A DNA stretch of 64,000 nt, from positions 20,150,001 to 20,214,000 of the forward strand of contig NC_135251.1 of assembly GCF_964204865.1 (NCBI RefSeq). Direction: 5' to 3'. The notes under the pieces are model-generated. The model saw nothing but the letters and a program-made list of their open reading frames with translations. It did not search any database and was not told where the DNA came from. The position numbers and the translations under genes were made by a program. Source of the stretch: Styela clava (Eukaryota). Shown in pieces: positions 141-46,176 of this stretch (its first letter is position 1; the number at the start of each line of letters is the position of its first letter).

Positions 141-3100
141 ATAAAGAACAGAAGAAACATTGACCTAGTGTTTATAGGAGGAAGTACGCACAGTGGTACA
201 AGTTTGATTAGAGCAATGTTGGATTCTCACCAAGAAATTTATTGTGGATACGAAACATGGCTGATGAGAACTATATTAGGCGGATTGGAAAAGTGGAGAG
301 AGTGAGCGTCGTTATTTACTCTATGTGTCTGCGTATTTGATCACAAATTTACCTGTATCACTTGTTATTTTCAGATTTAATCAGAAGCACTTCTTGGTGA
401 ACGCTGGAGTCTACCCAGAGGCACTAGATGACGCAATTGCGCAATTCATGTTGGAAGTAATTCTCGGTCACTGTCCGACTTCTAAACTATGTTGCTACAA
501 GGACACGTATATCTTAACCTACGCAGAGTACGTATAAGTTTTATGCCTGTAAAGTGAGGAGCAACTGGGGGGCCCGTGGTCCCAAGGGAGACGCGGAGAA
601 GTTAGAGGGTGGCCACAATACTGGGAAAAGCAAAATTGATTTAATGCAATTTTGTTTGCATATTTTTCTTTCATAAGAATATTCCCCGTTTCCCTAGTTT
701 GATTACCTGATGAGATTATTTTGCAGGATGTTTTTATTTTATGGTATGAATTATTTGATCATAATGGGTTTTGAAATCAACAAATCAAAATAACATTATG
801 AAACCTTTTTGCTTCAGAAATTTCAACCTTTGTAGCTGGTTGGCAGACCCTCTGATCTGCAGATAACGGTCGAACCTAGTCAACTTGTAACTAGTGAACG
901 CCGAAAAATACATTAAAATTTCTAAGACACGTGAATGAGACACCATTTACCTTTAGGGTTGGCTTTCTCAAATAAATCCAGATGGCCTAGATGCCCTAAC
1001 TGGAATGTACGCAATGCGTGCATTGCTCCCATTTTTGTTAAAAGCCTTTGGAAGGGGGCCACGAGCCATAAAAGGTTGGGAATCACTGGTGTGCGGTCTA
1101 GAAAATATTATGGTCTGTATGCATTAGGAAAACTTTTAATATTCTTTTCGGGCAAGAGAAAAGTTTCAATCATTTCAACCAAGCTATTTATTGATTCATA
1201 AATATTTTATGTTTAGGTATATCCACAGATTGTTCAAAAATGCTAAATTCATTCACATGGTCAGAGATCCAAGAGCGGTCGTTTATTCAGAACTATCACA
1301 GAAAGATCCAAACAATGTCAATAATGTCACAAGTTATTGGTATGTACATACGCATCAAAAGAAAAAACGAGAATATCGGTCAGAGACCGAAGACTTATCG
1401 ATCGAAAATTAGGCGATCCCCCAAAACAGCGCTCTTACTCCATAGTGACACCTTGTGTCCCATCACTAATTAATTAATAACTCGCTAATTATACGACATA
1501 GATCATCTAAAATCAAAAGTCGTGAGATATCGCGTACATCTAACAGACAGACAGACAGACAAATAAATATCAACATACTTACCGATTAAAATCGATAAGT
1601 AATAATAAACAAAAGTAGAAAACCTGCGATTTTAATTTTGGTCAAAAGGGCTGGAGAGAAAACAAAAAGCACTGTCTTTCACATCTTGTCAAATGAATTG
1701 GTGAATATGCTCCAATTACTGTTAAATGTAGAATCCTTAATATCACGCGATGATTTGACTTCAAAGTCAATATCATGCAAAATACCTATGTTTTGTCAGA
1801 ATCTGGTGTTAGCATTACGATGTAAGCAAACTTATGAAAATATTTTCTTGGTTGTTCTCTACAATATATATATAAATAAATAATAAAATGCTTACTCAAG
1901 GAATGCAATCCTGGGATGAGCAAATGCAAGCAAAACATAGGGTACGACGTATATGAAACACTTTGTTTTGCGTATTTGAAAGTATGGCAAAACTAAATAA
2001 GTAGAACAAGTTCATGCATAATTACATATTATATTTATTTTTTCTTTATTATTTTCTTGATTTTATGATAATATTTTAACTCATCTTAACTTGCAGGATG
2101 AATTTTCAAAAATGGGATGAGGATAATTTAATAATATTGGACAAATGTGCGGATTTAGGGAAAAAATATTGTTTGTTAGTCAAATATGAACAATTGATAT
2201 TGAAACCCGTGGCGCAAACAAAACGAATATTCGAATTTCTTGGAATTCCATGGAGCGACGAAGTTTTACATCACGAAAGACATATCAACAAATCTTTAAT
2301 ATTAAGGTAAAAAATTGAAAATATAAATTAAAACTAGTTTTTTTTTGGCTAAAACAGTCATTTCAATCTCGCGTTGAGGTGAGTACGGTAAATATTTTCC
2401 TTGAATTGAATTTAGTAAATCCAGCGCAATGCAACAATAGATCTTATCTAAATTCATACCTTTACGACGTTAATCCTTATTCAATACACACTGTCTAATA
2501 GGATTGCCAGTGGTGGAACGGGTTCTCGTTTGCATCGAATTACCTAACAACGGGTTCCCTTATATCAGAAGATATATATATATGTGATTACTTATGCTAA
2601 ATTAACAAGACACGATTTAAATAAATCTAATACATGACTTTCGAAACGCCAAATATAACGTCGGTCTTCAGCTTCGGTGCACGTTGCTCAGTTGCTGCAG
2701 TCGCCGAACGTCTAAAAAAGAATGGGTTCGCAGATAGTTCGCACAAACCCTCTGATCGCCATCATTGAAAAAATTTAATTTAGGTACGCCCTGTCATCTT
2801 ATTAATACTTTTTTTATCATGAACAAAGGCATCGAAAAGGTCATACCTTTATTGAATTGTTTTAAATTTTTTTCCCTTAAGCAGGTTTCTTAGAAGAGGT
2901 ATAATCGGCACTGGTCATAAATCAAATTCATTGTTTATACAATTGATTGTTGTAAAGAATTGAATAACTTAATGGGCATGCTATTCTAGATCAGAAGAAT
3001 ATGTGAGTGAAGATTTATTCAAACCTTTACATTTGAATGGACTAAAGAGTTGGTTTGGGAATCTCCCGAAAGAAATTGAAGAAAATCTCGGACAGAATGG

Positions 3101-3197
3101 AATTGGTCAATTGGTGTATTTTGACTATGATCGAAAAGAGCATACTCCAAATTATGGCCGGCCTGATGAATTTATGATGAAAATGATAAATAAATAG
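141..3197 (+). CDS. TPST-like sulfotransferase, clade A copy 1 (5' partial; first TM-encoding exon lies upstream of the window)
   Basis: GT-AG exons 141-301, 375-527, 1217-1339, 2097-2306 and 2990-3197 splice in frame. Motifs: VFIGGSTHSGTSLIRAMLDSHQEIYCGYET (5'-PSB loop region), CCYKD, MVRDPRA (3'-PB), VKYEQLILKP...FLGIPWSDEVLHHE, KPLHLNGLKSW...PNYGRPD, all collinear with TPST1/2. Confidence 0.9.
1365..1602 (-). mobile_element. Helentron-associated non-autonomous element (DINE-1/HINE-like), internally deleted copy
   Basis: Same family as 35223-35515 and 51478-51789. Has a subterminal palindrome ACTTA(C)CGAT..ATCGATAAGT, a (CAGA)n microsatellite and a terminal stem-loop TCGGTCAGAGACCGA, and sits in an A/T run with no TSD. 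Absent from the equivalent intron of A2. Confidence 0.7.
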
Positions 3198-4762
3198 GAA
3201 TTATAGAAAAAACGATATTAAATGATTGCTTCCACCGCAAGTATTGATGAGTTTTTCTCGGAATTAGTCGAATTCTTTTGTGGGCATTGTCCAATTTCGT
3301 TGCATTTCGTGGTGAAAACTGTAAATTGCACCAAACCAACTAAAAAAAATTTGCATTATGTTACGTCATTGCTAAAATTACTAAACGAATAAAATTTAAT
3401 ATTGTAATATTTAATTTTCATTGGTTGATGAATGATAAATTTTGGTACAAGTGAATCAACGAACAATAAATATCGATAGTTGAATTATTTTCGTATATTT
3501 CCGAACGATTGATTATTCATCTAGCAAAATGTTGAATTCGATAGAGGCAAGGAAAGGGTTAATTTCCAATATATATTCTCTATATGGAAACGAACAGTTT
3601 TTACTCAATGTACATAAAAAACGATATTTGTTTGTTCAGCCATCAAATGGTACTCAGTACGATATTAGAGGGTAATTTTTGTCAGGATGAGAAATAAAAT
3701 ATGTAAGACTCAACAGCAGACAAGTATTTGAGAACGACGCATGTATTTTTGTTTGAAATTTTTTATGTATTTGTCACAGTATTGCAATAATTTAGAATTT
3801 TTTGTTATTGAAATAAATATTGGCTACTCAGAAACCATGCCCATGTAATCGACATAGAAAGTCTTTGTCTATTCAAGCTTATTTGTAGCATGCATGTATG
3901 TTTCAATGAAATCAGAATACCTGAGATAGCGTAGTACCAAATAAGCATAAGTGGACTTCATACGTGGAGAGATACTTGTGCTGCACCGTTCATTTTCATG
4001 CATCTGAATGTGCAAATTAATATTTAGGGCGCTAAAACAACTATATTGAAAGCAGTTAGTAAGGCAGTTGTTGGTTGATTGTAAGATATGAAAAAATAAC
4101 ATAAAAAACAGATTATCAAAAATTTAGCGACATGAATTTAAATGATCTACGGACTTCTAAGTCAGTCTAGGAGGCTTCACCGCTGTGTTTCAAAATATTT
4201 GAATGGCGATTTTTTCTATTCCAGTCTATGTGAGCGAGATATCAACAGAAATGAGAGTGGAAACCACGAAATCCCGATAAATTATGCCGAGTGTATCTGT
4301 TCGCAATAAACACAATAATATGCAATAATTACAAGCAGTTTTCAGTTATGACCGAAAATCTAGAGAACGAATATTATGTTGCCTGAGTTAGAAATATATT
4401 ATTATATAATTCTTATTTATCTTACCAAAGAAGGTAACTTTCTCTCTAACAGTAAAAAAAATATATATCATAGCTATCAATTTAATCACAAAAATATCAC
4501 GATTAAAAAAAATTGGCTCCATTTTGTAAAAATACTTCTAGCGTTTCAAACTGTTGGCGTCAGGAAGTTTATTCTGTTATTATTTCAAATTCTAAAGGTA
4601 CAGTTAGAGTTTAGATATATGTGTTATATATATACAACAATACTTTTTTTGTCGCAATAACTAAATATTTCTAAGCATTTCAGGGCTTCGGCAATAATAA
4701 TGATTAATATAGATTATTAATATGTTGCATTTCAGATCACTACTCTGTACGGAAAGCTGGGG

Positions 4763-7700: not shown

Positions 7701-8200
7701 AAACCAGTTTGCTGATTATTACGACATTGCAACGGGGTTGCGTAACCCTCTTAATCCAACCACTGAAAATATTTGAATTCGGATACGCCCTGTTATCTTG
7801 TTAATGCCATTTTTATCATAAACAAAGGCATTTACAAGTTTATATATTTATTGCAATGTTTTAAATTTTTTCCCTGAGCGGGTGTCTTAGAAGTAAGTGG
7901 TATCAGCACAGGCCAAATGTATAAATATCACTCACTTTATGCAGTTGCCCTTAATACAGAATTTGGATAACTTAATGGGCATAATATTTTAGATCAGAAG
8001 AATATGTGAGTGAAGATTTATTCAAGCCTCTACATTTGAATGGACTAAAGAGTTGGTTCGGAAATCTCCCAAAAGAAATTGAAGAAAATCTCGGACACAA
8101 TGGAATTGGTCAATTGATGTATTTTGACTATAATCCAGAAGAGCATACCCCGATTTATGGCCGGCCTGATGAATTTATGATGAAAATGATAAATAAATAA
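4763..8200 (+). CDS. TPST-like sulfotransferase, clade A copy 2 (catalytic Glu replaced by Gly)
   Basis: Exons 4763-4885 (MFRSDLKQLFLICLCVCSSVLFYYLCRTIKKK, a type II signal-anchor), 5416-5576, 5650-5802, 6275-6388, 6699-6908 and 7993-8200. Open frame, highly similar to A1. Reads CGYGTW where A1 has CGYETW. Confidence 0.9.
7065..7613. mobile_element. pogo/Tigger-type MITE in intron 5 of A2
   Basis: TIRs CCGTATTTGCTCGTTTT / AAAACGAGCATATACGG flanked by TA on both sides. Absent from the homologous A1 intron. Confidence 0.75.
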
Positions 8201-8419
8201 ATAGGAATTGTAGAAATTATAGATAATTACCGTCCCCAACGTTAGTTTGATGATTTTTTTTTTCGAAGTTAGTCGACTTCTTTTTGTGGGTAATATACAC
8301 CAAATTATCGCAATCTGGTTTGTCAATTTGTGAGCTGTAGCTCAATGTCGCCGAATATATCATATTAGGAGAATATATTCTGACGTAAAGATTAGCGCCT
8401 CGCGCAGGCACGCATAAAA

Positions 8420-9110
8420 TACTTCTATTTACGGTAGACGTAAAGGTTTGTTTATATCGAATGGGAAAGTAATGCTCATTTTATATTTAATAATCATACA
8501 AGAAAAAAGACTTTTCGTTGACTTGAGTCTTCCGATACGAGCTAACATGATTTGATTCACGTAAAAAGAAGTTTTAAACAAGCCCAGGAAAATTCCTATT
8601 TTTACATGACTAGTTTCGTTGTATTTCGTAATGAAATTTGTAAATTGCACCAAACCACCTAAAATATTTTTTCATTATATTACGTTATTGCTAAAATTAC
8701 TAAACGAATAAAAGTTCTATAATATTTAATTTTTATTGGATGATAAGTGATCAATTTTGTTACATGTGAATCAACGAACAATAAATATGAATAGTTGAAT
8801 TGTTTCCATATATTTGCGAACGATTATTCCTCTAGCAAAATGAAGGGAAAGAAGATAAGGGAGAATAACTATACCAAACTCATGTGTTTCCCCATAGTTA
8901 GGACTAGGAGACTTGTCTACTCGATTGCATCGTAAAACACTTCGTTTTGGTGCAATTTTAAGCATAGCTTTTTCTACATCTTCCGGAATATTAGCGAACG
9001 ATTGTACGAGTCCAGTAAATACACAGGGGTTTTGATACTCGCTTTGTGGATACTTCGGTTCTGTCAAGTTAGAGTAGGTTGAAATCATAACTTTTAATAG
9101 ACAAGCACTT
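8420..9110 (-). pseudogene. Inverted relic of a clade-B TPST-like gene (penultimate exon 8875-9060 plus 3' UTR/flank)
   Basis: The minus strand reads ...GLVQSFANIPEDVEKAMLKIAPKRSVLRCNRVDKSPSPNYGETHEF, frameshifted relative to B exon 6, with its ttgacag acceptor at 9061-9067. 8420-8840 is the reverse complement of B-gene 3' flank sequence. Confidence 0.8.
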
Positions 9111-9519
9111 TTGGGTTGATTACACTGCCATGATTTCAGAGTGGGGCCAAAGTTATTTCGATAACAATAAAACTATTGCAATATTGTGACGAAAACATGA
9201 AGATTGTCGGACATATATATCTGAATATTAGACCATGCAATAAATAATGAGAATATCGCATTTACGATATATTCCGCAATATAACTTAATTATGCTTTCT
9301 TGGGTTCTAAAAAGTGTTCAAATCGATAGCGATGCCCAATAAAAAAGGGGTATTGCAGACAGTAGGAGAATCAAAATTTTAGAAACAGTTTCATTTTTGT
9401 ATCGAACTTACCAACAACAGGTTCCCGTCATTTCGAAAAATGTATGTATGTCACTGAGGAAGCTGTATTAACATGCCACGCCTTATATAACTTTCGAAAC
9501 GCCAAATAAAAACCTTAGG

Positions 9520-9928
9520 GTATAGGGTCCGCGGACATCTGGGGGTTCGCGACGATATGAAATGAGTCTGATCGATCTTTATTGATTAATTTCAGATCAT
9601 TGCATCTTTTTGGAAATTTGAAAAACATACATGTGTGAGGCAGCATTTTCAGCTCTTATCAATTTGATGACAAAATACAAGTCTCGACTTGCCGTAGAGT
9701 CGGACCGGGCGAGTTTGCTTGTCACAAATTGCTAGGAAAATTATTAGATTGTGCAGTCAAAAGCAATCTCATTCAACATATTATTATATTTTGTGTTGTT
9801 GCGATGTAAATGAAACATTGTTCCTCCTGGTTGGTTAGGCATAAGAATTGATACGGCATAGAGTTGGGTCCGTCAAAAATAAGATTCTAAAACATGGGTC
9901 CGCGGCCCAATAAGTTCGGGAAACACTG
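9520..9928 (+). mobile_element. hAT (Charlie/Buster-type) remnant carrying a transposase C-terminal dimerisation fragment
   Basis: 9625-9710 translates TYMCEAAFSALINLMTKYKSRLAVESD (the hAT TY.CE..FS motif). It ends in a Charlie-like terminus GGGAAACACTG. Confidence 0.7.
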
Positions 9929-12330: not shown

Positions 12331-15270
12331 ATGCCTAATACACTAACTAGTCATTTATTACCAATTTGTGTTTGTTCGTTTGTGTTTCCTTTTCTTCTCT
12401 TGAAAATAATGGACTATAATCCCGATACCGAACAATGGACACCATATTCAAGTGTTGATGTAAGTATACTGAATCAATAGTAACTCAATGCCCAACATGA
12501 GTGATCGTAGTAGAAGTAGATCATAAATAGACGACATATTTTCATAATTTCTTCCAAAAGGCAAGAGCGGAATAAAATTACTTGGAAAACAAACGTTTTT
12601 AGACCAAATCTTGTTCCGTTTTAATCATATCCCATATTTAACAGTAATAAACACCATTCCTTAGTTGATGGATATTTCAATAATAAGGAAACAAGTGATA
12701 AGTTGGTGATGTTGAGAGTTCTAAACGGTGCACCCAATCACCCTTTTTTCAACTTTTTTTGAGAGTTCCATTTTCGCTAGGATAGTTCAACTGAAATAAA
12801 TAGTCATCAATATATAATCATGGAATTACGAGTCGGTGATTTTATTAAATCTTTTTTTCTCAGTCTCAAAATCGAAGGCGAATGGAAATAATATTTATTG
12901 GGGGAATACATCGGAGTGGCACAACGTTACTAAGGACAATGCTTGATGCCCATGCTGATATTAGATGCGGCCCTGAGACTGTAGTGATCTGCGACGTACT
13001 GGGGGCGAGAGAGGCAATGGCAAAGTAAATAGTTGTTTGAGGGTTATAGCAATATGGCAAAATAAACCCCTGGAAACGTGTGAATATTATATAAACAAAG
13101 TAATATTTTTTAATTTTGTTGACGTCACCCCACACAAAACGTTAAATTCAAAAACGAATTCCCCCGAGCCCACAGAAAGTTTTGAAGAAATAAATAAAAG
13201 TAGCTTTCTAGCGACAACAACAATCATTAACCACTGACGATTTAAAAACAATTGAAAATTAACATTTTTTTTGTTGAGAAAAGCCATCTTGTCACAACAA
13301 CAAGAAACAATACAAAATGATCCATAAGTCCACTTCGTGTGCTTCGATATATATAGTTGATAAGTAGATAATGGCAAGCGCAACAAATTCAGTTTAATTG
13401 TAAAAATAATGCTATTACGAAAGAACGGATGGGGAAAGAATACAACATCTAATTGTGAAATATCTCCTTTTTCCACAGGACACCTATAACTGTTTCGTAC
13501 CTTTCCAAAATGGACCTATATCCTGAAATAACTGATAATGCTGTTGCACAATTTATTCTGGAAATAATAATTCGTCATGCGCCACCAGCTATTCATTATT
13601 GCAACAAGGACCCTCTACAAATGTTGCATTCAAAGTGAGAATCTTATAACGGTTAAATTACGAAAAAAAAAATATATATATATATCGAAGCCAGATCAGA
13701 ACTTCCCGAAATTTTGCAGTTAGTAAAAGAAGTTGATATTTTTCAACGGAAAATCTTTTCATTTCATAAAATGAATAATTAAGCATATTTGAATTAATGT
13801 TATCGCTCAAATTAGAGTAATCTAAATTCTAAAATATAGTGTTATGCATAATTAATATGCGCTCATTGCATTCGAATTATTATATCCTATTGATTTATAG
13901 TCTTCTATAACCGTTTTAGATATCTGCATTTTCTGTTTCCGAATGCAAAATTTGTTTTAATGATACGAGATGGAAGAGCAATGACCCATTCTATTATATC
14001 AAGGAAATTGAAATTATCTACATATAATATTGAGAGTTATAGGTATGTGAAATTGGTACGATAATTCTGATAACAAATCAGTTAGAGTGTAGAAATAACA
14101 GGATGAAAACTGCTTCTAAATGGGTAAAAATAACCTAAATATTGGAAAGATTTAAGCATTTCTAGCTAAGTGAAAACCAGATTGCGATCCAGAAATCCCT
14201 CCGTAAATATAAATTTAAATGAAATAGTTCATTTAGAGAAATCAGTTATAATTTCCCAGATCATCGTAGGTCTAGTTTAATCTTGCCTGTGATACCACAT
14301 TATTTATCAGTGTTTTACGGATCCTTTGTATATTTGATCCTAGGGAAACGTTATCGACGTGGAACAAGAATATAGAGAGAATGTATACGAAATGTATAGA
14401 ACTTGGAGAGACGATATGTCATTTGGTATATTACGAGCAATTAGTATTGCAGCCGGTGTCAACTACCAAGAACTTGTTTAAGTTTTTGGAAATACCTTGG
14501 AGTATCGCAGTTCTGCATCATGAAAAATATACAAACGAAAGTGATTTCTCAAAGCAAGTAAAATTAGAAAACAATATTAAGTACTAATGTGAAATTAAAT
14601 TAAATGCTTAGTGATCGTTTCTGATTGTTCATGTAATAGAGAAATCAACTGTATTATTTGTTATAAAAACAATAACGCTAGGAGTACTATGGTTTATTTT
14701 AATTTAAAACTATAAAAAAGTAAAACAAAATACTCTATTTTGACAGAACCGAAGTATCCACCGATCAAGTATCAAAACCTCTGTATTTGGCTGGACTCAC
14801 GCAATGGTTTGGTAACATTCCAGAAGATGTAGAAAGAGACATGATCAAAATTGCACCGATGCTAAGTGTTTTAGGATATAATCCAGAAGACAAGACTCCT
14901 AACTATGGAGAACCAGATGAGTTTGTCAAAGAAAAGGTTATAGTTATTATCTTCTTCCTCGTCACCATTCTCTTCCTTATCTTTTCTTTTTTTATTAAAT
15001 ATCATTCTCAGTAATTTATTTTTAATAAATAAGCAAATAACTTCAAATATCAAGGAAAATGGAAGACTAACATAACAAGATAAGGTCTGAATAATAAATG
15101 TTCTATTGTCAATTACGTTTGATAATAATTAGGTCACTTAAATTCTTTACTTCTCGCCTGCTTTCCATTTTTCTCATTTTCTAAACTGCTTTGTCAGTAA
15201 TAAATTAGTGATAACTGAATATATAACTTTACAGATTAAGAAAGAAAAGAAGAATACCATCACAAGTTGA
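12331..15270 (+). CDS. TPST-like sulfotransferase, clade B copy 1
   Basis: Exons 12331-12459 (TM anchor), 12864-13024 (IFIGGIHRSGTTLLRTMLDAHADIRCGPET), 13479-13634 (YCNKDP), 13920-14042 (MIRDGRA), 14344-14553 (GC donor), 14747-14936 (EVSTDQVSKP) and 15235-15270. All are in frame. Confidence 0.92.
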
Positions 15271-20888: not shown

Positions 20889-23800
20889 ATGCGTAATGCA
20901 CCAACTAGTCGGTTATTACTAATTTGTTTTTGTTCGTTTGTGCTTCCTTTTCTTCTTTTGCAAATATTGGATTATAATTCCGAGACCGAACAATGGACAT
21001 TATATTCAAGTGTTGATGTGAGTAAACTGAACTAGTAGTAACTCTTTTTTTTTCTCGTAAATCGGGGGTCGGCAACCTTTTGTCGCTCGCGGGCCAAAAT
21101 TACAGGTTGCAAGTCTTGAAGTGCCAGATGTTGAAATTAAAAAGACTGCGACAACTCGTGAACTCACCTTTTTCGTCTTACTAAATGAATTTATTGTGAC
21201 ACTTTTTGTTGCATTACGCTTGATAATAGCTTTTTTACATCAGGCGGCATGTTGGATGAAATAAAATTTGAAAAATTTCTAAATTGGCATCACTGATCCT
21301 GAGTTTGTAATGTTCATTTCAAAAATAATTGTTCGCACACACATTTACTTCCAAACTTTGATGGGAATTTTTTCGCATGGTTTGTCAAATTTGCACAGAG
21401 TTTTCCTTCAAAAAGATACTTTTTATAAAGATCAATCAGTGATACATCTCTCGAATAGAACATGGATTTTATTTCCACATTGCATTTATTTTTTTCTGCA
21501 CCATTGAACCCACTAAACCCACTAATTATAATTACACTGTGAGCTCATTAAACGAGTTCACTAAATTGATAGGTTATAATATAATCGTGAAAACAACCGT
21601 TTTGTCGCTATAATTTAGTGAAGTCTCGCGGGCCGGATTATATTACTCCGCGGGCCGCAGGTTGCCGACCCCCGTCGTAAATGTTTGCAACGGATCTTAT
21701 TTCTTCGCCAACGATGATAGCTGTCTACCTATGTTGAAATTTCTGTCTACGGTGAAGTATATGCTCATTTCAATTATTACAAAAAATGCCCAACAGAGGA
21801 GATCAAAGTAGATCATGTATAGACGACAAATCTTCGTAATTCCTTCCAATAAAATTGAGTAAGAACGGAATGGAATTCTTTGAAAAAAAAAACGTGTTTG
21901 GGTAAAATCTTGTTCCAATCTACCAAAGTGCCTACCCCTTCCACCAGAAACCGCACGTCGTTCGCACATTTTTTAGTCAACTCTTTTTATAATGATTTTT
22001 TTTTATTACATTCAAGCACGCGCCATATTTAGCATTAATAAGCACCATTCCTTAGTTGATGGATATTTCAATAATAAGGGCACGGTACAAAAAATAGTAC
22101 AAAATACCTTAGTTGATGGATATTTCAATAATAAGGGCACGGTACAAAAAATAGTACAAAAACGAACGCATCCTATTTTAATTGACGTATTGTCTGTCAG
22201 TTTGTGAGGATTGCGAGTATTTAACGGTGTACTCAATCACACTTTTTATCAAGATCTTTGAGAGGGTTGCGATTTCAGTGAGATAGAGCACTAAAAGTCA
22301 TTAATATTCAATCATGGAATAACGAGTCGGTGATTTTAATAATTCTTTTCTTGCAGCTTCGAAATCGAAGGCAAATGGAAATAATATTCATTGGAGGAAT
22401 GCATCGCAGTGGCACAACATTGCTAAGAACAATGCTTGATGCCCATGCTGATATTAGATGTGGCCCTGAGACTGCAGTGATCTGCGACGTACTGGGGGTG
22501 AGAGAGGCAATGGCAAAGTAAATAGTTGTTTACAAGTAATAGTAATTAGGCAAAATAAAACACTGAAAACGTGTGAATATCATATGAACAAGTGATTTTT
22601 TTAAATTTTGTTGACGTCACCACAAAAAAACGTGGAAAAACGATTCCCACATATCCCGTAGGAAGTAGCAAAAGTAATAGCCTTCTAGCGACAACAACAG
22701 TCTTTAACCGCTGAAGTTTCAAATCAATTGGTCCGGTAGTTAATGAGAAAACAATCCATAGGTCCGCTTCGTGTTCAAAAATTGATATAATTTTGATTGG
22801 CAAGGAACAACAAAATAAGTTTCTTCAAAAAATAATGCTATTACGAAAGAAAGAATGTGAAAAGAATAAGACATCCGATTGTGCAATATCTCTTTTACCA
22901 CAGGGATCCAATGATAGTTTCACGCCTTTCAAAGACGGACCTATATCCTGGAATTACTGATAATGCTGTTGCACAATTTATTCTGGAAATAATAATTCGT
23001 CATGCGCCACCAGCTATTCATTATTGCAACAAAGACCCTCTACAAATGTTATTCTCAAAGTGAGATTGTATCTTATAACGGTTAAATTATGAAAAAAAAA
23101 ACATATTGAAGCAAGATCGAAACTAAATGAGGTTATTATTTTTTCAACAAAAAAGCTTTCTCATTTTATGAAATTAATAATCAGGCCTATTTGGATAACT
23201 GTTATCGTTTAAATTAGAGTAATCCGAAATATAGTGATATGCATAATCATTATGCTCTTATTACATTCGCATTGTTATATTTTATTTATTTATAGACTTC
23301 TCTAACAATTCTAGATATCTACACCTTTTGTTTCCAAACGCAAAATTTGTTTTAATGATACGAGATGGAAGAGCAATGGCCCATTCTATCATATCAAGGA
23401 AATTACAAATATATACATATAGCATTGAGAGTTATAGGTATGTGAAATTGATACGCTTATGACAGTATCAAATAAGTTGGAATTAAAACGGCTTCTGATT
23501 GGTTGTGATATAAAGGCGCACTTAAATACTGGTACGAGGATAAGCATTTCCAGCTAAAGTGAAAACCTGATCGCGATAGAAATTCCTTCCCTACATATAA
23601 CTCCAAATCAAATAGTTTATTTTGAGAATTTATTTTAATTTCCCAGATCATCGTAGGTCTAGTTTAATCTTGCCTGTGATACCACATTATTTATCAGTGT
23701 TTTACGGATTCTTTGTATATTTGATTCTAGAGAAACGTTATCGACGTGGAACAAAAATATAGAGAGAATGTATACGCAATGTATAGAACTTGGAGAGACG

Positions 23801-24698
23801 ATATGTCATTTGGTATATTACGAGCAATTAGTATTGCAGCCGGTGTCAACTACCAAAAACTTGTTTAAGTTTTTGGAAATACCTTGGAGTATCGCAGTTC
23901 TGCATCATGAAAAATATACAAACGAAAGTGATTTCTCAAAGCAAGTAAAATTAGAAAACAATATTAAGTACTAATCTGTAAAATTAATTCTGATGCCTAT
24001 TGATCGTTTCTGGTTTAACAGAGCAATCAACTATATTATTGGTTACAAAAACAATGACTCTATAAAAGTACTTATAGTTTATTCTAATTTAAAACAATAA
24101 AAAAGTTGAAAAATAAACACTCTATTACTCTTACTCTATTTTGACAGAGCCGAGGCATCCACCGATCAAGTATCAAAACCTCTGTATTTGGCTGGACTCA
24201 CACAATGGTTTGGTAACATTCCAAAAGATGTAGAAAGAGATATGATCAAAATTGCACCGATGCTAAGTGTTTTAGGATATAATCCAGAAGACAAGACTCC
24301 TAACTATGGAGAACCAGATGAGTTTGTCAAAGAAAAGGTTATAGTTATTATCTTCCTCCTTCCTCGTCATCGTCACCTTTCTCTTCCTTATCTTTCCTTC
24401 TTTTTATTTAATATCATTCTCAAGAATTTATTTCTAATGAATGAGCAAATAAGTTCACATATATATCAAAGAATATGGAAGACCAACATTACAAGCTAAG
24501 ATCTGAATAATAAATGGGTTGCACATGTTCTATTATCAAATACGTTTGATAATAATTTTGTCACTTAAAATCTTTAGTTCTGTTCTCACTTGCCTTCCTT
24601 TCTTTTCATTTAACTTATTTTTTAGTAATAAATTATTGATAACAAAATGAATAACTTTACAGATTGAGAAAGAAAAGAAGAATAACATCACAAGTTAA
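20889..24698 (+). CDS. TPST-like sulfotransferase, clade B copy 2
   Basis: Exons 20889-21017, 22357-22517, 22904-23059, 23315-23437, 23731-23940 (GC donor), 24148-24337 and 24663-24698. Exon sizes and phases are the same as B1. Confidence 0.92.
21063..21674. mobile_element. hAT (Charlie-like) MITE in intron 1 of B2
   Basis: TIRs CGGGGGTCGGCAACCT / AGGTTGCCGACCCCCG with a perfect 8-bp TSD TCGTAAAT (21055-21062, 21675-21682). The empty site is visible in B3 intron 1 (about 34860). Confidence 0.9.
22050..22161 (+). repeat. 57-bp direct tandem duplication in B2 intron 1
   Basis: CCTTAGTTGATGGATATTTCAATAATAAGGGCACGGTACAAAAAATAGTACAAAA occurs at 22050 and at 22107. Confidence 0.9.
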
Positions 24699-28656: not shown

Positions 28657-29092
28657 GGTAGCACATATTCTTGTAGTAAAAGCGTTTTTTCCATAAAACG
28701 TGCAATTTTTGAAGATAGGAACAAGCTAATATTTATTACTAAATTTCTGAGGAACATTTTAAAATTATTTCCAACTAGTTCCCTTATGTGCGTTACGAAA
28801 CAGTAAAATTGTATGATTACCTCTTTTTGAACACTGTATGTAATTGTTTTATATCGGTTGGATAAAATTAACTTGACTTGACATATGGTTCTCCATAGTT
28901 AGCAGTCTTTTCTACTAAATTGCATCGTGAAACAATTAGCATTGGTGCAATTTTTCATCTGATTTCAATTTTTCAGATGCAATTTTTCATCATATTCTTT
29001 TACATCTTTCGGAATATTACCGAACCATTGCGTGAGTCCAGTAAATACGGGGGTTTTGATACTCGCTTTGTGGATACTTCGGTCCTTTCAAG

Positions 29093-34695: not shown

Positions 34696-37600
34696 ATGCG
34701 TAATATACCAACTGGTAGTTTACTACTAATTTGTTTTTGTTCATTTGTGTTTCCTTTTCTTCTGTTGCAAATAATGGATTATAATTCTAAGACCGATCAA
34801 TGGACATTATATTCAAGTGTTGATGTAAGTATACTAAATTAGTAGTAACTCTGTTTTTCTCGTTAATGTTTGTAACGGATCTTGTTTCCTCACCAGCAAT
34901 GATAGCTGTCTGCCTACGTTGAAATTCTTTAATTTTTCTTCCAATAAAATTTATCAAGAACGGAATGAAATTACTTAAAAAAACGTGTCTGGGCAAAATC
35001 TCATTCGGTTTTAATCTACCAAATGCTTCACCCTCTCACCAGAAACCGTATGTCGTTCGCGCATTTTATCCAACTATTTTTATTAGGAATTTCATTTCTT
35101 TATTACAGTCAAGCATATGTCATATTTATCGTTAATAAGCAACAATCTTTCGTTGATGAATTATTCAATAAAATAAGGGAATAATAAAAAAATCAGTATA
35201 TGAAAAAGGAACAAAACCTTTTTTTACTTATCGATTTTAATCGGTAAGTATGTTGATAGGTACTTGTCTGTATGTCTGTTAGATGCACGCGATATCTCAC
35301 GAAAGCGAGATTGAATCTGCTCCAGATTTTGCATGTGCATTCATCTTATCTCGGGCCAGAAGCCTATTGATTTTGGCAAATTATGTCGTATAATTAGCGA
35401 GTTATTTTTTAATTAGTGATGGGACACAAGGTGTCACTATGGAGTAAGAGCGCTGTTTTGGGATCCCCTAACTTTCGATCGATAAGTCTTCGGTCTCTGA
35501 CCGATATTCTCGTTTAATTGTTTGTCAGTTCTGAAGGTTGCGAGTATTTAACGGTATACCCAATCGCACTTTTTATCAAGATCTTTGAGAGGTTGCGATT
35601 TCAGTGAGATAGAGGAACTGAAATAGATAGTCATCAATATACGAGTACAACCATGAAATTAAGAGTCGGCGATTTCAATAATCCTTTTCTTCCAGTCTCG
35701 AAATCGAAGGCAAATGGAAATAATATTCATTGGAGGAATGCATCGCAGTGGCACAACGTTGCTAAGGACAATGCTTGATGCCCATGCTGATATTAGATGC
35801 GGCCCTGAGACTGTAGTAATACTCAACGTACTGGGGGTGAGAGAGGCAATGGCAAAGTAAATAGTTGTTTATGAGTAATAGTAATTAAGCAAAATAAACC
35901 ACTGAAAACGTGTGAATATTATTTAAACAAGTATTTTTTTTCATTTTGTTGACGTCACCACACAAAGCGTTAAATAGAAAAATGAGCCACACAGCGCACA
36001 GGAAGTAATAGCCTTCTAGCGACAACAAATATCTTTAACAACCGACAATTTCTAAGTAATTGGTCCAGTAGTTAATGAGAAAACAATCCACATGTCGACA
36101 TCGTGTTCAAACATTGATATAATTTTGATTGGCAAGGAACAACAAATTCAGTTTGGGTAAAATCAAAGCTATTACGGAAGGATGTGGGAAGAATACAACT
36201 TTAATGGTGAAATATCTCTTTTACCACAGGGATCCAATGATAGTTTCACACATTTCCAAGACGAAACTATATCCTGAAGTTACTGATAATGCTGTTGCAC
36301 AATTTATTCTGGAAATAATAATTCGTCATGCGCCACCAGCTACTCATTATTGCAACAAGGACCCTCTACAAATGTTGTTTTCAAAGTGAGATTGTATCTT
36401 ATAACGGTTAAATTATGAAAAAAAAAATATCAAAGCAAGATCGAAACTAAATGAGGTTATTATTTTTTCAACAGAAGCTCTTTTTCATTTTATAAAATGA
36501 ATGATTAGGCATATATATTTGGGTAACTGTTATCGTTTAAATTAGAGTAATCCGAAGTATAGTGATATGCATAACCAATATGCTCTTATTACATTCGCAT
36601 TGTTATATTTTATTTATTTATAGACTTCTCTAACAATTCTAGATATCTACACTTTTTGTTTCCGAACGCAAAATTTGTTTTAATGATACGAGATGGCAGA
36701 GCAATGGCCCATTCTATCATATCAAGGAAATTGGAATTATATACATATGATATTGAGAGTTATAGGTATGTGAAATTGATATGATTGTGCTGATATCAAA
36801 TCAGTTAGAGTGTAATAATAACAGAATTAAAACTGCTTCTGGATGAATGTGATATAAAGGTGTACTTCAATATTGATATGATTTCTAACTTCCGTGAAAA
36901 CTTGATTGCGATCCAGAAATTCCAATTGTACATACAACTCCAAATCAAATAGTCTATTTTGAGAATTTATTAAAATTTCAAAGATAATTGTAAGTCTAGT
37001 TTATTTTTCCTGCGATACCACATTAACTATCCATGTTATACCGATCTTTCGCATATTTGGTTCTAGAGGAACGTTGTCGACGTGGAACAAAAATATAGAA
37101 AGAATGCATAAACAATGTATAAAACTTGGAGAGAAGATATGTCAGTTGGTATATTACGAACAATTAGTATTGCAACCGGTTTCAACTACAAAGAACTTGT
37201 TTAAGTTTTTGGAAATACCTTGGAGTATCGCAGTTCTGCACCATGAAAAATATACAAATCAAAGTGATTTCTCAAAGCAAGTAAAATTAGAAAACAATAT
37301 TGAGTATTTATCTGTGAAATTAATCATAATGCTTATTGAGCGTGACTGGGTGTATTGTTTAACAGGGCAATCAACTTTTTATTAGTAACAAATAACAATG
37401 AGCTAAGAGTACTTTTGGTCTATATTAATTTGAAACGATGAAAAAGTAAAAAAAATACTCTATCTTATTTTATTTCGACAGAGCCGAGGCATCCACCGAT
37501 CAGGTATCAAAACCTCTGTATTTGGATGGACTCACGCAATGGTTTGGTAACATTCCAGAAGATGTTGAAAAAGATATGTTGAAAATTGCACCGATGTTAA

Positions 37601-38046
37601 ATGTTTTAGGATATAATCCAAAAGACAGGACTCCTAACTACGGAGAACCGGATGAGTTTGTTAAAGAAAAGGTTATAGTTATTCCTTATCTTATCTTTTT
37701 CCTCGTTACCATTAGTGTAACTTTCAAATCTCGATTCTCTGATTAATTTCCTTATCTTTCCTTCTTTTCATTTAAAATAAATTTTAAAAATTTATTTCTA
37801 ATAAATGAGCAAATTATTTCACATATCATGATAAAAGGGAAGACATTGAAAGCTGAGAACTAAGTAATAAATTGGTTGTAGACTACGTGTTCTATCATCA
37901 CTCGCGCATGATAATAATTATGTTAATTCTTTACTTCGCACTTGTCTTTCTTTTCATTTCACTTCGTTGTCAGTAATGAACTAATGATAACAAAATACAT
38001 AACTTTACAGATTGAGAAAGAAAAGCACAATAACATCACAAGTTAA
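34696..38046 (+). CDS. TPST-like sulfotransferase, clade B copy 3
   Basis: Exons 34696-34824, 35696-35856, 36230-36385, 36643-36765, 37067-37276 (GC donor), 37482-37671 and 38011-38046. Same structure as B1/B2, open frame. Confidence 0.92.
35223..35515 (+). mobile_element. Helentron-associated non-autonomous element (DINE-1/HINE-like) in B3 intron 1
   Basis: 5' palindrome, GTCT-type microsatellite, 3' subterminal repeat CGATCGATAAGT, stem-loop TCGGTCTCTGACCGA. Inserted in a T run. B2 intron 1 shows the empty site. Confidence 0.75.
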
Positions 38047-40266: not shown

Positions 40267-40430
40267 CTTTGATGAAACAAATTCAACTATTTGACGCTCT
40301 GTGGAACAAAAAAGAAAATCCTCTCTGGAGTGATTAAAATCATTGCTTACTCAGGTTGTTGACTGAGGCATGTGTGATATAAGAGCAAGACAAAAAAAAT
40401 TCTCTCTCACCACAAAAGCCATTCTGTCGG

Positions 40431-40671: not shown

Positions 40672-41839
40672 CTTATCATAGCCATTTTGATCTTCAGCAC
40701 ATGATACCAGTTACCAACAGGAATCTTTGTTCATGGCAAAAAGAAAAAATAGTGTGAACAGTGTGCAGAACAGCCACTAGTGCATAAAACACATAGACGC
40801 ACAGAAAAAGGAACTCTAGGTCAGTCTGATCTGTTCATGATATGGGAGTTTAATGCAACTACGTTGGCGATGCAGATTTGTGTTCAGCAGTCACTTGGAT
40901 ATTTTGAAACGTATAGTTACGTATGGGTAGATTCTTAGTTGTTCAAAGTTTTGTTCAGGAGATATGCAATATGGCAGCAACAACCCATCTACAAATATTA
41001 GCCCAAAACGAATGTGATCCTGCAACGTTTCTTGAGTTCCAATAAACTTTCACAAAATTATCAAAATTACTTTTATTTATTTCAAAACTTTCTGTGGGCT
41101 CTCTGGGATTCGTTTTTCACATTGAAGTTTTGTGTAATGACGTCATCGAAATAAAAACTAGCGCTTCGTGTGGTGGTTCGCAATATCATCCCAGCGATCG
41201 GGTGCTTGGCGAAATCGGAAGTTTTACTGTAAACGATTTGATACTCCATTTGTGACTTGAAATCTTTGGTATTTTGATCCATGTTTAGACTGGAAGCATG
41301 AATCATCATCGTCACAGGACCAGGAAAGCAGGTACAGTGCGGGTTGCGGCAGCTGTTCCACAGTTCCAGCTTTAATCAGGATATGATTTTGGAATGAATT
41401 GTTCGTAAAAAAAATTCTTGTTTTTTTTTTCATATCCATATATTTGAGCATAGTTCTCCTGTTTCATAAAAAGACATACGCTAAAATGAACGTAGGCAGT
41501 ATTACTATATAATGTTTCACATGAAGAGGTACTTGGCGCGGCATCGGTATATATTGTATGAATCAATATTCCGAGTGCTCACGCCAAATTATATCCGTTA
41601 CATAAAAACTCAGTAGGCGGTTATCAGTTAGTTGGCAAATAAATTTTAAAATAGCTAATATTTTACCAGACAGGCAAAATTGCCTTCAGTATTTATTTAG
41701 CTCAGGTTTATGGGTTTTATTTGGATACTAAAATTCGAGGTCTGAAATGTACATGAAAAAACTCATTTTCTCCGAGGGTCAAATATGTTATACAAAGTTG
41801 TTATTTTTATGAAGTGATCCATAGGTTCAAACATAATAT

Positions 41840-42650
41840 CGTCACGCTAATAACCAAATAACAAAAGTCATTTTTGGCGATTTTGAGTTTTTTATAAAAT
41901 AGATATTTATGTAATACTGCGCACCTGTCTGTTAACTCAGATTTTATTTTAAGAATTCCAAAACCCATAAAAATGGAGATTTAGTATGACATGCACATTT
42001 GTGCAATTGTTTCGTCATAATCAATTATCATGGTTACTGCAGGACTATTGTGACGTCACAAAGGCAAAATAACCTCGGCGAAGTATTTTCTTGTTTTTGC
42101 ATCTCGGATTCTAGCTTAGCGCGTATTAATTTGAATTTATACTACTGTATAGGAAGGCGTGCACTGTCCGAGTCCAATTCTCCTTGGTTGGCTTTTATAT
42201 AGGGTGCATTGCTGTTTTATTCTTTATATTTAATCTTAGTCGTATTTCGGTGGGTGTGCAGAACGTGTTATATTATTGAAATATATATTTTTACAAACAT
42301 AAAAAATAATGTAATTGAAACTTATTAGCTATTTCGGGAATTAGACATTGTAGATACTGAAAATGACATTCGTTTTTGGAATGTTTAGTTTTCAGGACTG
42401 GTGCATATAGTAAAGTTGCAAAACTGCGTATGTCCCCAAGTCATAGACATATTTCTGCCTAAGTCACAGTGCGCCATCATGACGTCACTTAACTGCGTCA
42501 TACAAATTAACTTAAATCCGGCTACGATCAAAAAATTGAACCAGGGCAAATTATTGACTCTCAATGGCGTAACAATATCATTAGGAAGTTTTTTACGTTT
42601 TTCTCAAAACTGCTAAAAATGACTTACGCAATTCGGTTATTAGCGTGACG
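41840..42650 (+). mobile_element. About 800-bp TIR element with 4-bp TSD (Sola1-like non-autonomous), copy 1
   Basis: TIRs CGTCACGCTAATAACC / GGTTATTAGCGTGACG, with TSD ATAT on both sides. Confidence 0.8.
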
Positions 42651-43088
42651 ATATGTGCTTTTTGTGATTAAATTTGTTGAGAAACTGTGAATTTTATGAA
42701 TCGAAACCGTGGTCCTTGTCGGAAATCAGATATCCAGCAATAACAACAAACAGTGTTTAGCATTCTTACTAATCAATATTGTTAGGGATGTTGTAAATAT
42801 TTTTCTTGTGATTGGATTAACATAGCAAAATACTTTTTTAATTCAAATTACAATATAATTATACCTCATTTGAAGAAGCTAATAGTAATGTATCGATAAA
42901 TTCCGAAACGTTAGTGCAATTCGTAATGCAGTTCACCTATCTATAATACCTTTATTTCCGGGCTATCTAGCTAAATTCTCTACAGACCATCGACGGAATA
43001 TAATTTTGTCACGACTTCGTTTTTTCAGCTAATTAGAAAGACAAATAATAAAAACAATACTTATCAATGTTTTCAGGCCAGAACTGTG

Positions 43089-46000
43089 ATGTGCCGAAAG
43101 TTGGAAATGTTAAAGAGCAGCCCAAAACAGTTGTATCTAATCTGTACATGTATGTGTTTCTCTGTGATGTTTCATTATTTGTGTCAAACGATGAATAAAA
43201 GGGAACCTTATTTAGATATAAACAAAACGGTAAGCAATAAGCATCGTGAAAAGTGTCGTCAAATGCAGCGGTATTGTAGGGTTATCTCAAATTCTACATA
43301 TACTTCACTTTTGGCCTCTTAGGTTACTGTATTACCTCTGTCAATCTGATTGTCGTATCAGCTGTTTTATGTATTTATTGTTCTATTTTTGTGCCAATGC
43401 TAAATATCCTACTTGTTGGGTCAATCTCACAGATATGTTACCCAGCGTAATTAGCATCGAAACCATTTAAGTAATGAATCATTGTAGTGAACATATTTTT
43501 ACAGTTATATTATGACCTTGGACACCTGCCTCAATAAAGCAGCTTATAACCCAATTGTTCCATCGGCACATGTTATAATAATGTATAACAGGGTTATGTC
43601 ACGATTCAAAAATGATTGTTGATAGTCCTTACTCTGATTGAATTTCAGTTATACTCCTGATAGAATGTCACACCGTGCAGGCACGTAAAAATGTACCTAA
43701 TTATCACTCATATGCTTTCTCGTACATTCGTAATATCCCCATTTGGGCACAATCATGCCCTAATTATTATACATACTTATAGCTTTAATTACTAGTTAAA
43801 TTCTTTCATATGGCCATTACTAAGATTATTCAGTAATCCATTTGTTATGATACTCTAGAATTCTGTAACTAAATCCATTTGTTAGTTTCCTTCTACCGAT
43901 TGCGATTAACACAATACAACAATAGCTTCCCAAAAACGAAACTTGTCAATGTTTTCCCAAGTAATTGAATTTCATGTATTGGTGTTTCATAAAGATCTTA
44001 ATATGTTTTCCAGTTACAAGACAAAAAAAATATTAATTTGGTGTTTATCGGAGGAAGTAATCACAGCGGCGCAAGTTTGACAAGGGCAATACTGGATTCC
44101 CATCAAGATATACATTGTAGGTGCGAAACATGGCTGATGGAATATATGCTAAGCGCAATGTCAAGGTGGACAAGGTGAAAGTTTATTTGTCTTTAGTTCT
44201 ATCTATCCATTTATTAGATCACCGATCTACAAGACTATCATTCTCAGTCGTTCTGTCTGTGTGTTGAGCTGCAGTGTCTAAACGGCAGGACCGATCGGGA
44301 TGAAATTCCCCATGTGGGTTATCCTGTCACCCTAGTAACGAGCGTTTCATAGAATGTCCGGATTGAATTTCGTTTCCATGACAACATCGAAAAAACTAGT
44401 CAACCAAGTCGAAATTGAAATTCCAAAAATGCTACCCAAAACACAGAAGAGAATACTCTTATTATGAACATAATTATTAGTTACCGCATGTCTATTTTGC
44501 AAAGATATCGACGAGACGCACAGCTCTAAAATGAACTGTACAATTGACGCGGTTCAATTGCCGGTTAGAAACCTGAAATAACGTGAGCCTCAAGCATCGG
44601 CGGAGATCCACACTGGGCGCCTACCAGCTTGTTTAATCAAGCATTTGTTTATAATAACATTTTTTTTTTAGATTTGAACAAAAGTTTTTCTTAGTGAACG
44701 CTGGAGTCTACCCAGAAGCGTTGGATGAAGCAATGGCCCAATTTATGTTGGAAATAATTCTTAGCTTTTGCCCAAATTCTAAACTATGTTGCTACAAAAG
44801 CACATTTATATTATCCTGGGCTAAGTAAGTATAATCTTCATGTTCAACTAGAAATATACTTGTCGAAGTGTATGTATGAAATACACATTATTCCGTTTTA
44901 GGTATGTTCACAAGTTGTTTCCAAATGCCAAATTTATTTATATGGTCAGAGATCCAAGAGCAACTGTTCATTCTGAAATGTCACAAAGGAATTCAAACAA
45001 CGTAACACACTATTGGTATGTATGTAAGATCAATTAACTACAAGACTATGCTACAACGAAAACTTTTCGAACAAGTACAGCACTTAGGCGTACTAAGATA
45101 TTATGGTCTGACACAAACGAAATTTAAAAGTACTATCTGTAGTTCTCTGTTTGATAAAATCATACGTTTCACCTTCATCAGACTCCACAATATAAATTCT
45201 AGGACAAAAACGATAGTTGAGATATGTCCCATTCTCAATGATCTCTCTACGTCAGACAAAATCCGTGTTTTTATACCTTTTTCTTGTTGTGCTGAAAACA
45301 ATGATATGCCGTCTGAAGAGTTTGTAAATGCGCTACGTTTAGGTTAACTATTAGGCATATCAGCAGGATCATAGTAAATACTTGTGACTTTCAAAACACA
45401 TTGAAAACACGCAGTAAAAAATATTTATATTCCTCATATACAAAAGAAAAGCTTCAATTGATGATCTCAACGACGCAAATTTAGAAATAATTATTATTTT
45501 GTCTTCATTATTTACTTGCTGACTTTACTCGTCTTAATTTTTAGGACGACTTTAAAAAAATGGAATGACAATAATTTATATTTCTACGATGAATGCGCGG
45601 ATTTAGGAAAAGAAATTTGTTTGATAGTTAAATATGAACAATTGGTATTAAAACCAGTTATGCAAACAAAACAAATTTTCAAATTTCTTGGAATTCCCTG
45701 GAACGACGAAGTTTTGCATCACGAAAGACATATCAATAAGTCTTCAATATTAAGGTAAAAAATTCAAAAAATACTCTTTAAAAATAAGTAATACTTCATT
45801 TTTATTGTGCTGATTTGACCAATCATCTTCATTCATAACCATTTTTAATTCAGTAATTTTATTCCTAGTTGTTCCTAGAGTTATTTGATATTTATTCCAA
45901 TGAGGGTAAACTATACACAATGGGTTTGTTATTTATCAAATATTACAATGAAAATAATATTTTAGATTAGAACCAGATGCGAGTGAAGAATTATTCAAAC

Positions 46001-46176
46001 CTTTGAACTTGGATGGACTAACAAAATGGGTTGGGAATCTCCCGAAAGAAGTCGAAGAACAATTGAAAATTTATAATGAAATGAAACTTTTTGGTTATGA
46101 CCCAGAAAAGACTACTCCGAAGTATGACCAACCCGATGATTTTATGATGAAAATGATGGCTGAACAAAAATTATAA
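43089..46176 (+). CDS. TPST-like sulfotransferase, clade A copy 3 (most divergent A copy)
   Basis: Exons 43089-43229 (TM anchor), 44014-44174 (VFIGGSNHSGASLTRAILDSHQDIHCRCET), 44672-44824, 44902-45015 (MVRDPRA), 45545-45754 and 45966-46176. Internal exon sizes of 161/153/114/210 match A2, and the frame is open. Confidence 0.9.

What the first reader, a model, noticed from the sequence alone, without database searches (positions are those of the whole stretch)
141..46176. Clade A genes have a rebuilt active site yet remain intact: pseudo-enzymes or new chemistry
Seen: the PAPS loop is GGSTHSGTS (A1, A2) or GGSNHSGAS (A3) instead of the canonical GGVPRSGTT. The canonical ERSTDQVIKP segment is EYVSEDLFKP / PDASEELFKP, which puts Val/Ala at the catalytic Ser in an ungapped alignment. 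Known (human TPST2 numbering, from memory): Arg78, Glu99, Lys158 and Ser285 are catalytic, and TPSTs act as dimers. All three A genes keep open frames, splice sites, both disulfide pairs, the Lys and the RD.RA motif, despite clear A3 versus A1/A2 divergence. Inference: the fold is being selected with Arg-to-His in the active site, suggesting a regulatory heterodimer partner of clade B, a binding protein, or altered catalysis.
Basis: partly seen in the sequence, partly recalled or inferred. Interest (0 to 1): 0.72.

Follow-up and report, generated by a model that had tools for sequence, protein, structure and literature searches.

The report
Sea-squirt sulfotransferase copies with eroded sites
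A sea squirt carries extra copies of the enzyme that puts sulfate on proteins; one group keeps an intact, selected fold but has lost several residues that bind the sulfate donor and the target, so it is likely a non-catalytic partner that would tune its working relatives.

Summary
The window has six tandem TPST-like genes: three clade A, three clade B. Databases label these proteins Styela clava. A fourth A gene lies just past the window.

All A genes have His for catalytic Arg78 and Val/Ala at Ser285. A genes lose 5–8 of 16 site residues; B and the canonical gene lose none. They keep 30–31 of 32 structural positions.

dN/dS is 0.37 (below 1, p=4e-10; B 0.20). A1 is spliced in RNA-like contigs from three studies and folds as a TPST (pLDDT 90).

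Best reading: a pseudo-sulfotransferase kept for its fold and dimer face (0.45). The partner need not be B. Main rival: an active His-type enzyme with a new acceptor (0.30); a widespread bacterial subfamily has His at the same place.

His itself is not shown to be selected, and Arg-less TPST paralogs recur in other animals. No activity was tested.

The parts
141..3197 (+). A1, five catalytic-domain exons (141-301, 375-527, 1217-1339, 2097-2306, 2990-3197); signal-anchor exon lies about 0.5 kb upstream of the window. His78 at 189, Gln195 at 1299, Val285 at 3003; Glu99 and Lys158 kept
   Evidence: splice joints in RNA-like contigs; equals stored protein P0003
4736..8200 (+). A2: signal-anchor exon 4736-4885 plus five catalytic exons from 5416. 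Open frame; His78 at 5464, Glu99->Gly at 5527, Val285 at 8006; first in-exon ATG lost, second kept
8876..9067 (-). frameshifted dead fragment of a clade-B last catalytic exon
12331..15270 (+). B1: all 16 site residues kept (GGIHRSGTT, ETV, NKDP, STDQV); acceptor-site arginines lost; GC donor at intron 4
20889..24698 (+). B2 (stored protein P0177), all 16 site residues kept
28880..29090 (-). second frameshifted dead fragment of a clade-B last catalytic exon, next to an LTR insertion
34696..37674 (+). B3, all 16 site residues kept; last short coding exon not located
43077..46176 (+). A3: signal-anchor exon from 43077 (ATG 43089), catalytic exons 44014-44174, 44672-44824, 44902-45015, 45545-45754, 45966-46176. 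His78 at 44062, Thr81->Ala, Gly97->Arg, Asp159->Ser, Gln195 at 44984, Ala285 at 45979; N-H-S sequon inside the PAPS loop

Best explanation
Clade A encodes intact, selected TPST-fold proteins whose donor (PAPS) and peptide sites have eroded, likely inactive as tyrosine sulfotransferases and likely kept as dimer subunits that would pair with catalytically intact paralogs in the Golgi and tune what those sulfate. Shown: intact frames, signal anchor, splicing of A1, purifying selection, loss of 5-8 of 16 site residues with the structural core kept. Predicted: TPST fold and a compatible helix-2-4 dimer face. Inferred: no transfer activity, Golgi location, and a regulatory effect. In TPST dimers the other protomer helps form the peptide site; A keeps Trp113 but lacks the basic residues, so an A-containing dimer would have one dead site and one altered site. 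Which paralog is the partner (B, the two chromosome-16 paralogs, the canonical TPST, or A itself) is open.
For: Targeted erosion: A1 loses 5, A2 6, A3/A4 8 of 16 site residues, against 0 in B1-B4, C16a1 and canonical C16b. Among 37 Arg/Lys-keeping homologs at the same distance (30-45% identity), 32 lose 0 or 1. A keeps 30-31 of 32 structural positions (band mean 29.9). Different paralogs lose different site residues. Site segments evolve at dN/dS 0.30 [0.19-0.41] in A against 0.08 [0.03-0.14] in B. Whole-domain dN/dS is 0.37 (about 0.27-0.50), below 1 at p=4e-10; dimer helices 0.45, p=9e-7. Ala at the equivalent Arg, Glu or Lys cuts tick TPST activity strongly or below detection (PMC10951654). 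A1 is spliced in contigs from three studies. AF2 pLDDT 90.2; best fold match human TPST2, E 3e-24. A1:B2 model: score 0.78, best of 3 controls 0.00, contacts agree in at least 91%, partner pLDDT at least 83; the mark was reached by 51 of 78 solved and 2 of 108 mismatched microbial pairs (eukaryotes: 39 of 65 and 2 of 126). Human TPST1/TPST2 heterodimers are reported (cited in PMC5562738). A3/A4 carry an N-H-S sequon in the PAPS loop (use not shown).
Against: No activity or binding was measured. A1, A3 and A4 keep Glu99, Lys158, Arg183, Ser191 and Tyr238. The 9-codon PAPS loop is among the more conserved segments in A (dN/dS 0.14 [0.02-0.41]) and YEQL is invariant. His at this position is natural in bacterial Sulfotransfer_3 proteins (60 of 66 scanned). 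Arg195 loss is common in Arg78-keeping homologs. Arg->His, unlike Arg->Ala, has not been tested in any paper I read. The complex pass can come from memory of solved TPST dimers and does not say which family member binds. Twelve of the 16 site positions were chosen by me from conservation and recall, not from a paper.
Confidence: 0.45

Rival explanations
1. Clade A is an active PAPS-dependent sulfotransferase with His replacing Arg as the acid in the mildly acidic Golgi and a re-shaped, non-basic pocket for a new acceptor (not acidic tyrosine peptides).
For: Glu99, Lys158, Arg183, Ser191 kept in A1/A3/A4. A degenerate scan of prokaryotic genomes for G-H-S-G-S-T-L-L-D/E gave 67 loci; 60 of the 66 with a usable ORF hit Sulfotransfer_3, and 23 aligned keep the Lys and mostly the Glu. 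In 2 of 2 neighbourhoods scanned they sit among glycosyltransferases. PAPS-loop dN/dS 0.14. Sister clade B also lost the acceptor arginines while keeping all catalytic residues, so new acceptors are a theme of this expansion.
Against: No His-type enzyme was seen among the aligned PDB hits or found in my paper search, so their activity is unproven; in both clusters they neighbour Arg-type sulfotransferases. A loses many further site residues, differently in each paralog. The His is not individually shown to be selected (p about 0.34). Site dN/dS in A is close to the rest of the protein (0.30 against 0.37), whereas in B it is 0.08 against 0.18.
Confidence: 0.3
2. Clade A genes are redundant duplicates drifting toward loss, with only weak selection against misfolding; A2 is furthest along.
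For: dN/dS is higher than in B (0.37 against 0.20, p about 0.004). A2 has lost Glu99 and one start codon. Dead exon fragments and recent duplications show birth-and-death turnover.
Against: No stop or frameshift in four genes over dS about 0.7; dN/dS below 1 at p=4e-10; stored proteins from an earlier annotation version, presumably another haplotype, are also intact; A1 is spliced in three studies; two extra cysteines are fixed in all four A genes.
Confidence: 0.12
3. Clade A is a non-catalytic binder working alone or as a homodimer (a Golgi chaperone, or a sink for a sulfated or phenolic ligand), as proposed for SULT4A1.
For: Same erosion data. The pocket gains aromatic residues (Trp at Arg101; Phe/Leu at Arg118). 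SULT4A1 does not bind PAP, was inactive in that study, is conserved and binds catecholamines (PMC1847840).
Against: No ligand is known; the A homodimer was not modelled; the acceptor strand evolves at dN/dS about 1.
Confidence: 0.09
4. Clade A is an ordinary TPST, with His and the adjacent Ser substituting.
For: Fold, Glu99, Lys158 and disulfides kept; databases name it TPST-like; the one-residue insertion leaves the Ser register slightly open.
Against: The acceptor arginines (TPST1 R102, R106, R123, R285) and T199 named in PMC5562738 are all replaced. Ser at 286 is a normal variant beside Ser285 in insect TPSTs. A canonical TPST exists elsewhere in the genome.
Confidence: 0.04

Closest known systems
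Animal tyrosylprotein sulfotransferases (human TPST1/TPST2, tick TPST; PDB 3AP1, 5WRI, 8W5Z; Pfam PF13469)
   Same: Fold (TM-score 0.84-0.91 by target length against the human structures, 37-38% identity), type II signal anchor, four Cys, Glu99, Lys158, RD.RA..S, dimer helices
   Different: Arg78->His, Ser285->Val/Ala, Arg195->Gln; acceptor arginines and the KVTIAGFD strand replaced; tandem lineage-restricted copies
SULT4A1 (orphan cytosolic sulfotransferase)
   Same: Conserved sulfotransferase fold with an altered cofactor pocket; did not bind PAP and was inactive in PMC1847840 (passages)
   Different: Cytosolic SULT family, conserved across vertebrates; later papers in the listing discuss activity (listing only). 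Clade A is Golgi-type, young and faster evolving
Bacterial Sulfotransfer_3 proteins with a G-H-S-G-S-T loop
   Same: His at the PSB Arg/Lys position with Glu, Lys and the 3'-phosphate motif largely kept
   Different: Soluble, in polysaccharide clusters, invariant CxC...C motif, only distantly related; no characterised member found. Convergent, not ancestral (A nests among Arg-bearing Styela paralogs)
Arg-less TPST-like paralogs of other animals (trematodes Trichobilharzia, Dicrocoelium, Paragonimus; shrimp Halocaridina)
   Same: TPST-like proteins without the PSB Arg (Ser/Gly instead); 24 of 148 homologs have neither Arg nor Lys
   Different: Separate places on the tree; none uses His; function not found in my searches

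Membership tests
TPST (animal tyrosylprotein sulfotransferase) | Sulfotransfer_3 domain, TPST fold | tested here: met
   Pfam 121.5 bits; AF2 pLDDT 90.2, Foldseek E 3e-24 to TPST2
TPST (animal tyrosylprotein sulfotransferase) | N-terminal type II signal anchor | tested here: met
   Hydrophobic exon found for A1-A4; helix 19-42 in the model. Golgi location itself not tested
TPST (animal tyrosylprotein sulfotransferase) | Catalytic Arg78 in the 5'-PSB loop | tested here: not met
   His in all four A genes
TPST (animal tyrosylprotein sulfotransferase) | Catalytic Glu99 and Lys158 | tested here: met
   Kept in A1, A3, A4; A2 has Glu99->Gly
TPST (animal tyrosylprotein sulfotransferase) | Catalytic Ser285 | tested here: not met
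   Val/Ala in both alignments; a one-residue insertion leaves some doubt on register
TPST (animal tyrosylprotein sulfotransferase) | Basic acceptor site for acidic Tyr peptides (TPST1 R102, R106, R123, R285, T199) | tested here: not met
   All replaced in A; mostly replaced in B too
TPST (animal tyrosylprotein sulfotransferase) | Dimer through helices 2-4 | tested here: inconclusive
   A1:B2 model passes through these helices, but like complexes are solved; prediction only
TPST (animal tyrosylprotein sulfotransferase) | PAPS-dependent tyrosine sulfation | not testable with these tools
   needs an assay
Pseudoenzyme (inactive homolog kept by selection) | Catalytic residues lost while fold is conserved and gene is expressed | tested here: met
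   (A1 only)
Pseudoenzyme (inactive homolog kept by selection) | Measured absence of activity and a non-catalytic function | not testable with these tools
   needs assay and interaction data
Bacterial His-PSB Sulfotransfer_3 subfamily | GHSGSTLL loop with CxC...C and DSSK motifs | tested here: not met
   A shares only H-S-G; it derives from animal TPSTs

The most novel reading that the evidence does not exclude
Clade A is the first animal Golgi sulfotransferase with His in place of the near-universal PSB Lys/Arg, reached independently of a widespread, uncharacterised bacterial His-type subfamily. It uses different chemistry (His as a pH-tuned acid or transient sulfo-His) on a tunicate-specific acceptor, possibly inside mixed dimers with Arg-type paralogs.
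Probability: 0.2. Interest if true: 0.72.

Novelty: new variant of a known kind. Interest (0 to 1): 0.45.

Why it matters
I found no description of a pseudo-TPST or a tunicate TPST expansion in the searched library (most subscription papers are not covered). If A is an inactive subunit, tyrosine sulfation would have a dimer-based control like pseudokinases give phosphorylation, and the Arg-less paralogs of flukes and crustaceans become candidates for the same. If A is active, the rule that the PAPS loop needs Lys/Arg is wrong, and a bacterial subfamily becomes testable. The limits: the clade was seen in one species only, and duplicates with eroded sites are common in tandem expansions.

Tried and rejected
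A2 expression: its first catalytic exons had no cover in 4 of 4 runs laid. The runs were found with A1 and contigs show presence only, so this is no evidence of silence. No run is on record as RNA; splicing is read from intron-skipping joints. A3 and B3 expression was not obtained. One low-depth contig (3.7) shows Ser191->Thr in A1; ignored as a possible error.

A-like genes in other species: none found. Other ascidian proteomes may be missing, so 'Styela-only' means only 'in these libraries'.

dN/dS on the A stem could not be estimated (dS saturated). A3/A4 alone is not significantly below 1 (p=0.06).

The original TPST2 structure paper was not held, so S285 mutant data and the roles of R195, Y238, Q288, T81 are recalled, not read. 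No supplements were read; those of PMC5562738 and PMC10951654 hold the active-site figures and alignments.

Earlier scan notes: nothing. The PDB search with the bacterial His profile showed no His-type loop in the four alignments printed. The A homodimer was not modelled (one job only). The atlas look-up for the ORF at 56655 gave no result.

Full report
Locus. A six-frame scan found six TPST-like genes on the + strand in the order A1, A2, B1, B2, B3, A3. Two searches of the own genome gave 11 and 10 exon matches. They add A4 about 10 kb past the window, B4 on contig C4, and three genes on C16: a canonical TPST (GGMPRSGTT, CGQETR, EKSTDQV) and two divergent Arg-keeping ones. I modelled 10 of these 11 genes. 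All have five open catalytic exons with phase-2 introns; B1-B3 use a GC donor at intron 4. The eleventh is represented by stored protein P0031. Databases name the matching proteins 'protein-tyrosine sulfotransferase-like, Styela clava'. Each A gene has a signal-anchor exon.

The observation. PMC5562738 (parts 2-3 of 5 read) names R78, E99, K158, S285 as the catalytic residues of TPST2. PMC10951654 (passages and section 6) reports that Ala at the tick Arg, Glu or Lys cuts activity strongly or below detection, with Arg as proposed general acid, and that the -3 substrate residue touches the other protomer. All A genes have His at Arg78. Of 163 homologs, 121 have Arg, 3 Lys, 24 another residue, 15 a gap, and none His. 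A has Val/Ala at Ser285 in both alignments, with one extra residue in that segment. A2 has also lost Glu99.

How far the site has changed. I scored 16 cofactor and catalytic positions: four from the papers, twelve chosen from conservation and recall. A1 lost 5, A2 6, A3 and A4 8; B1-B4, C16a1 and C16b lost none. I kept 84 of 163 homologs that cover all 16 positions; 45 lie at A's distance from canonical TPSTs. Of the 37 that keep Arg/Lys, 32 lost 0 or 1 other position; the other five lost 2, 3, 5, 7 and 9. Of 32 near-universal positions outside the site, A keeps 30-31 (band mean 29.9). So the loss is aimed at the site. The acceptor residues R101, R105, R118, R122, K164, T198, R284 are all replaced in A and mostly in B; A keeps W113, B does not. 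A3/A4 have an N-H-S sequon in the PAPS loop, and all A genes have two extra fixed cysteines.

Selection. With my own codon model (GY94-type, F3x4), pairwise dN/dS is 0.37 for A1/A3 (dS 0.67, p=3e-7), 0.38 for A1/A2, 0.44 for A3/A4 (p=0.06), and 0.13-0.16 for B1-3/B4. On four-gene trees A is 0.37 (about 0.27-0.50; against 1, p=4e-10) and B 0.20 (difference p about 0.004). Site segments run at 0.30 in A and 0.08 in B; the rest at 0.37 and 0.18.

Expression. Contigs of four runs were laid on 1-16000. X1 and X3 (one study) join all four catalytic introns of A1 at GT-AG. X5 (second study) lists three of these joints and one contig spans the first four exons. X9 (third study) shows one joint. B-type last exons are covered in X1, X3 and X5. 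A3 and A4 expression is untested.

Origin. In a FastTree tree of 126 of 173 sequences (coverage at least 78%), A nests with B, C16a1 and P0031 in a Styela-only clade (support 0.997), apart from canonical C16b, on a stem of 0.90 substitutions per site. The order inside that clade is unresolved (0.32, 0.56), so A is not shown to be B's sister. Arg-less TPST-like proteins occur at several other places on the tree, including trematodes and a shrimp. Loss of this Arg therefore recurs.

Structure. AF2 on an 83-row alignment gave pLDDT 90.2, pTM 0.83, and no strand where TPST's peptide-pairing strand (recalled) would lie. The ten best Foldseek hits are TPST structures. An A1:B2 complex scored 0.78 against a best control of 0.00 (contacts agree in at least 91%, partner pLDDT at least 83; mark reached by 51 of 78 solved and 2 of 108 mismatched microbial pairs, 39 of 65 and 2 of 126 for eukaryotes), through the helix-2-4 face. 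TPST dimers are solved and close cousins pass, so this shows that the face is compatible, not that B is the partner. At the 32 interface positions A1 matches C16b and C16a1 at 14, and B1-B4 at 10-13.

Is His compatible with activity? PMC11625862 (passages) gives Lys or Arg as the PSB residue. I scanned prokaryotic genomes for a His version and got 67 loci. One had no usable ORF; 60 of the other 66 hit Sulfotransfer_3 at E at most 1e-4. A 23-sequence alignment keeps the Lys equivalent in all and the Glu in at least 90%; a profile aligns the His with the Arg of CurM ST and TPST1. I fetched four neighbourhoods and Pfam-scanned two; both hold glycosyltransferases and Arg-type sulfotransferases. 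His is thus a natural variant, but I found no activity data, and the pattern forced His, so it gives no frequency.

Mechanism and odds. Erosion spread over the donor site, the loss of the acceptor site, different losses in different paralogs, and a kept core and dimer face fit a pseudo-sulfotransferase best. I put a non-catalytic dimer subunit at 0.45, an active His-type enzyme with a new acceptor at 0.30, slow decay at 0.12 (higher for A2), a stand-alone binder at 0.09 and a normal TPST at 0.04. The nearest precedent is SULT4A1, which did not bind PAP and was inactive in PMC1847840 (passages); PMC4079325 (passages) added only homodimer data. PMC6272617 (passages) mentions a proposed but unfound sulfo-histidine intermediate for TPST2. 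All other papers were seen as search listings only.

Verdict. A real, undescribed (in my ten searches) variant of the TPST family in one ascidian. Not a member in the catalytic sense, since Arg78, Ser285 and the acceptor site fail. Moderately interesting and cheap to test.

Noticed in passing
window 29093-31777: Two 99.5% identical direct repeats of about 840 bp (TG...CA) with a 4-bp target duplication around about 1 kb holding an aspartic-protease-like remnant (no Pfam hit at 1e-5): a recent, internally deleted LTR retroelement beside a dead B exon
   Followed up: partly
window 41297-60444 and G000:C2 about 20221820-20244000: Recent segmental duplication (92-98% identity) that produced A3/A4 and copies the neighbouring DNA
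   Followed up: partly
window 56625-57317 (-/+: + strand): Single 230-codon open frame with a signal-peptide-like start; looks lipocalin-like by eye, no Pfam hit at 1e-5
   Followed up: partly
window 12331-37674 (B1-B3) and L017/L018 (B4): Clade B keeps all catalytic residues but has Asp/Asn at Arg105, Val/Ala at Arg101 and no Trp113; its acceptor strand evolves at dN/dS about 0.9: a likely active sulfotransferase with a changed target
   Followed up: partly
window 14553, 23940, 37276: GC-AG intron shared by B1-B3; the GC donor is used in RNA-like contigs
   Followed up: yes
L024-L090, L091, L092: Widespread bacterial Sulfotransfer_3 subfamily with His in the PAPS loop and an invariant CxC...C motif; the two clusters scanned pair it with Arg-type sulfotransferases and glycosyltransferases; no characterised member found
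   Followed up: partly
proteins P0019, P0052, P0161, P0133: Arg-less TPST-like paralogs in trematodes (GGH.S.GTG) and a shrimp; the trematode ones P0052 and P0134 lose only 2-3 of 16 site residues
   Followed up: no
window 292-301: Alternative donor in A1 exon 1 removes three codons including Trp113 (annotated isoform X2; contig of run X5 fits it)
   Followed up: no
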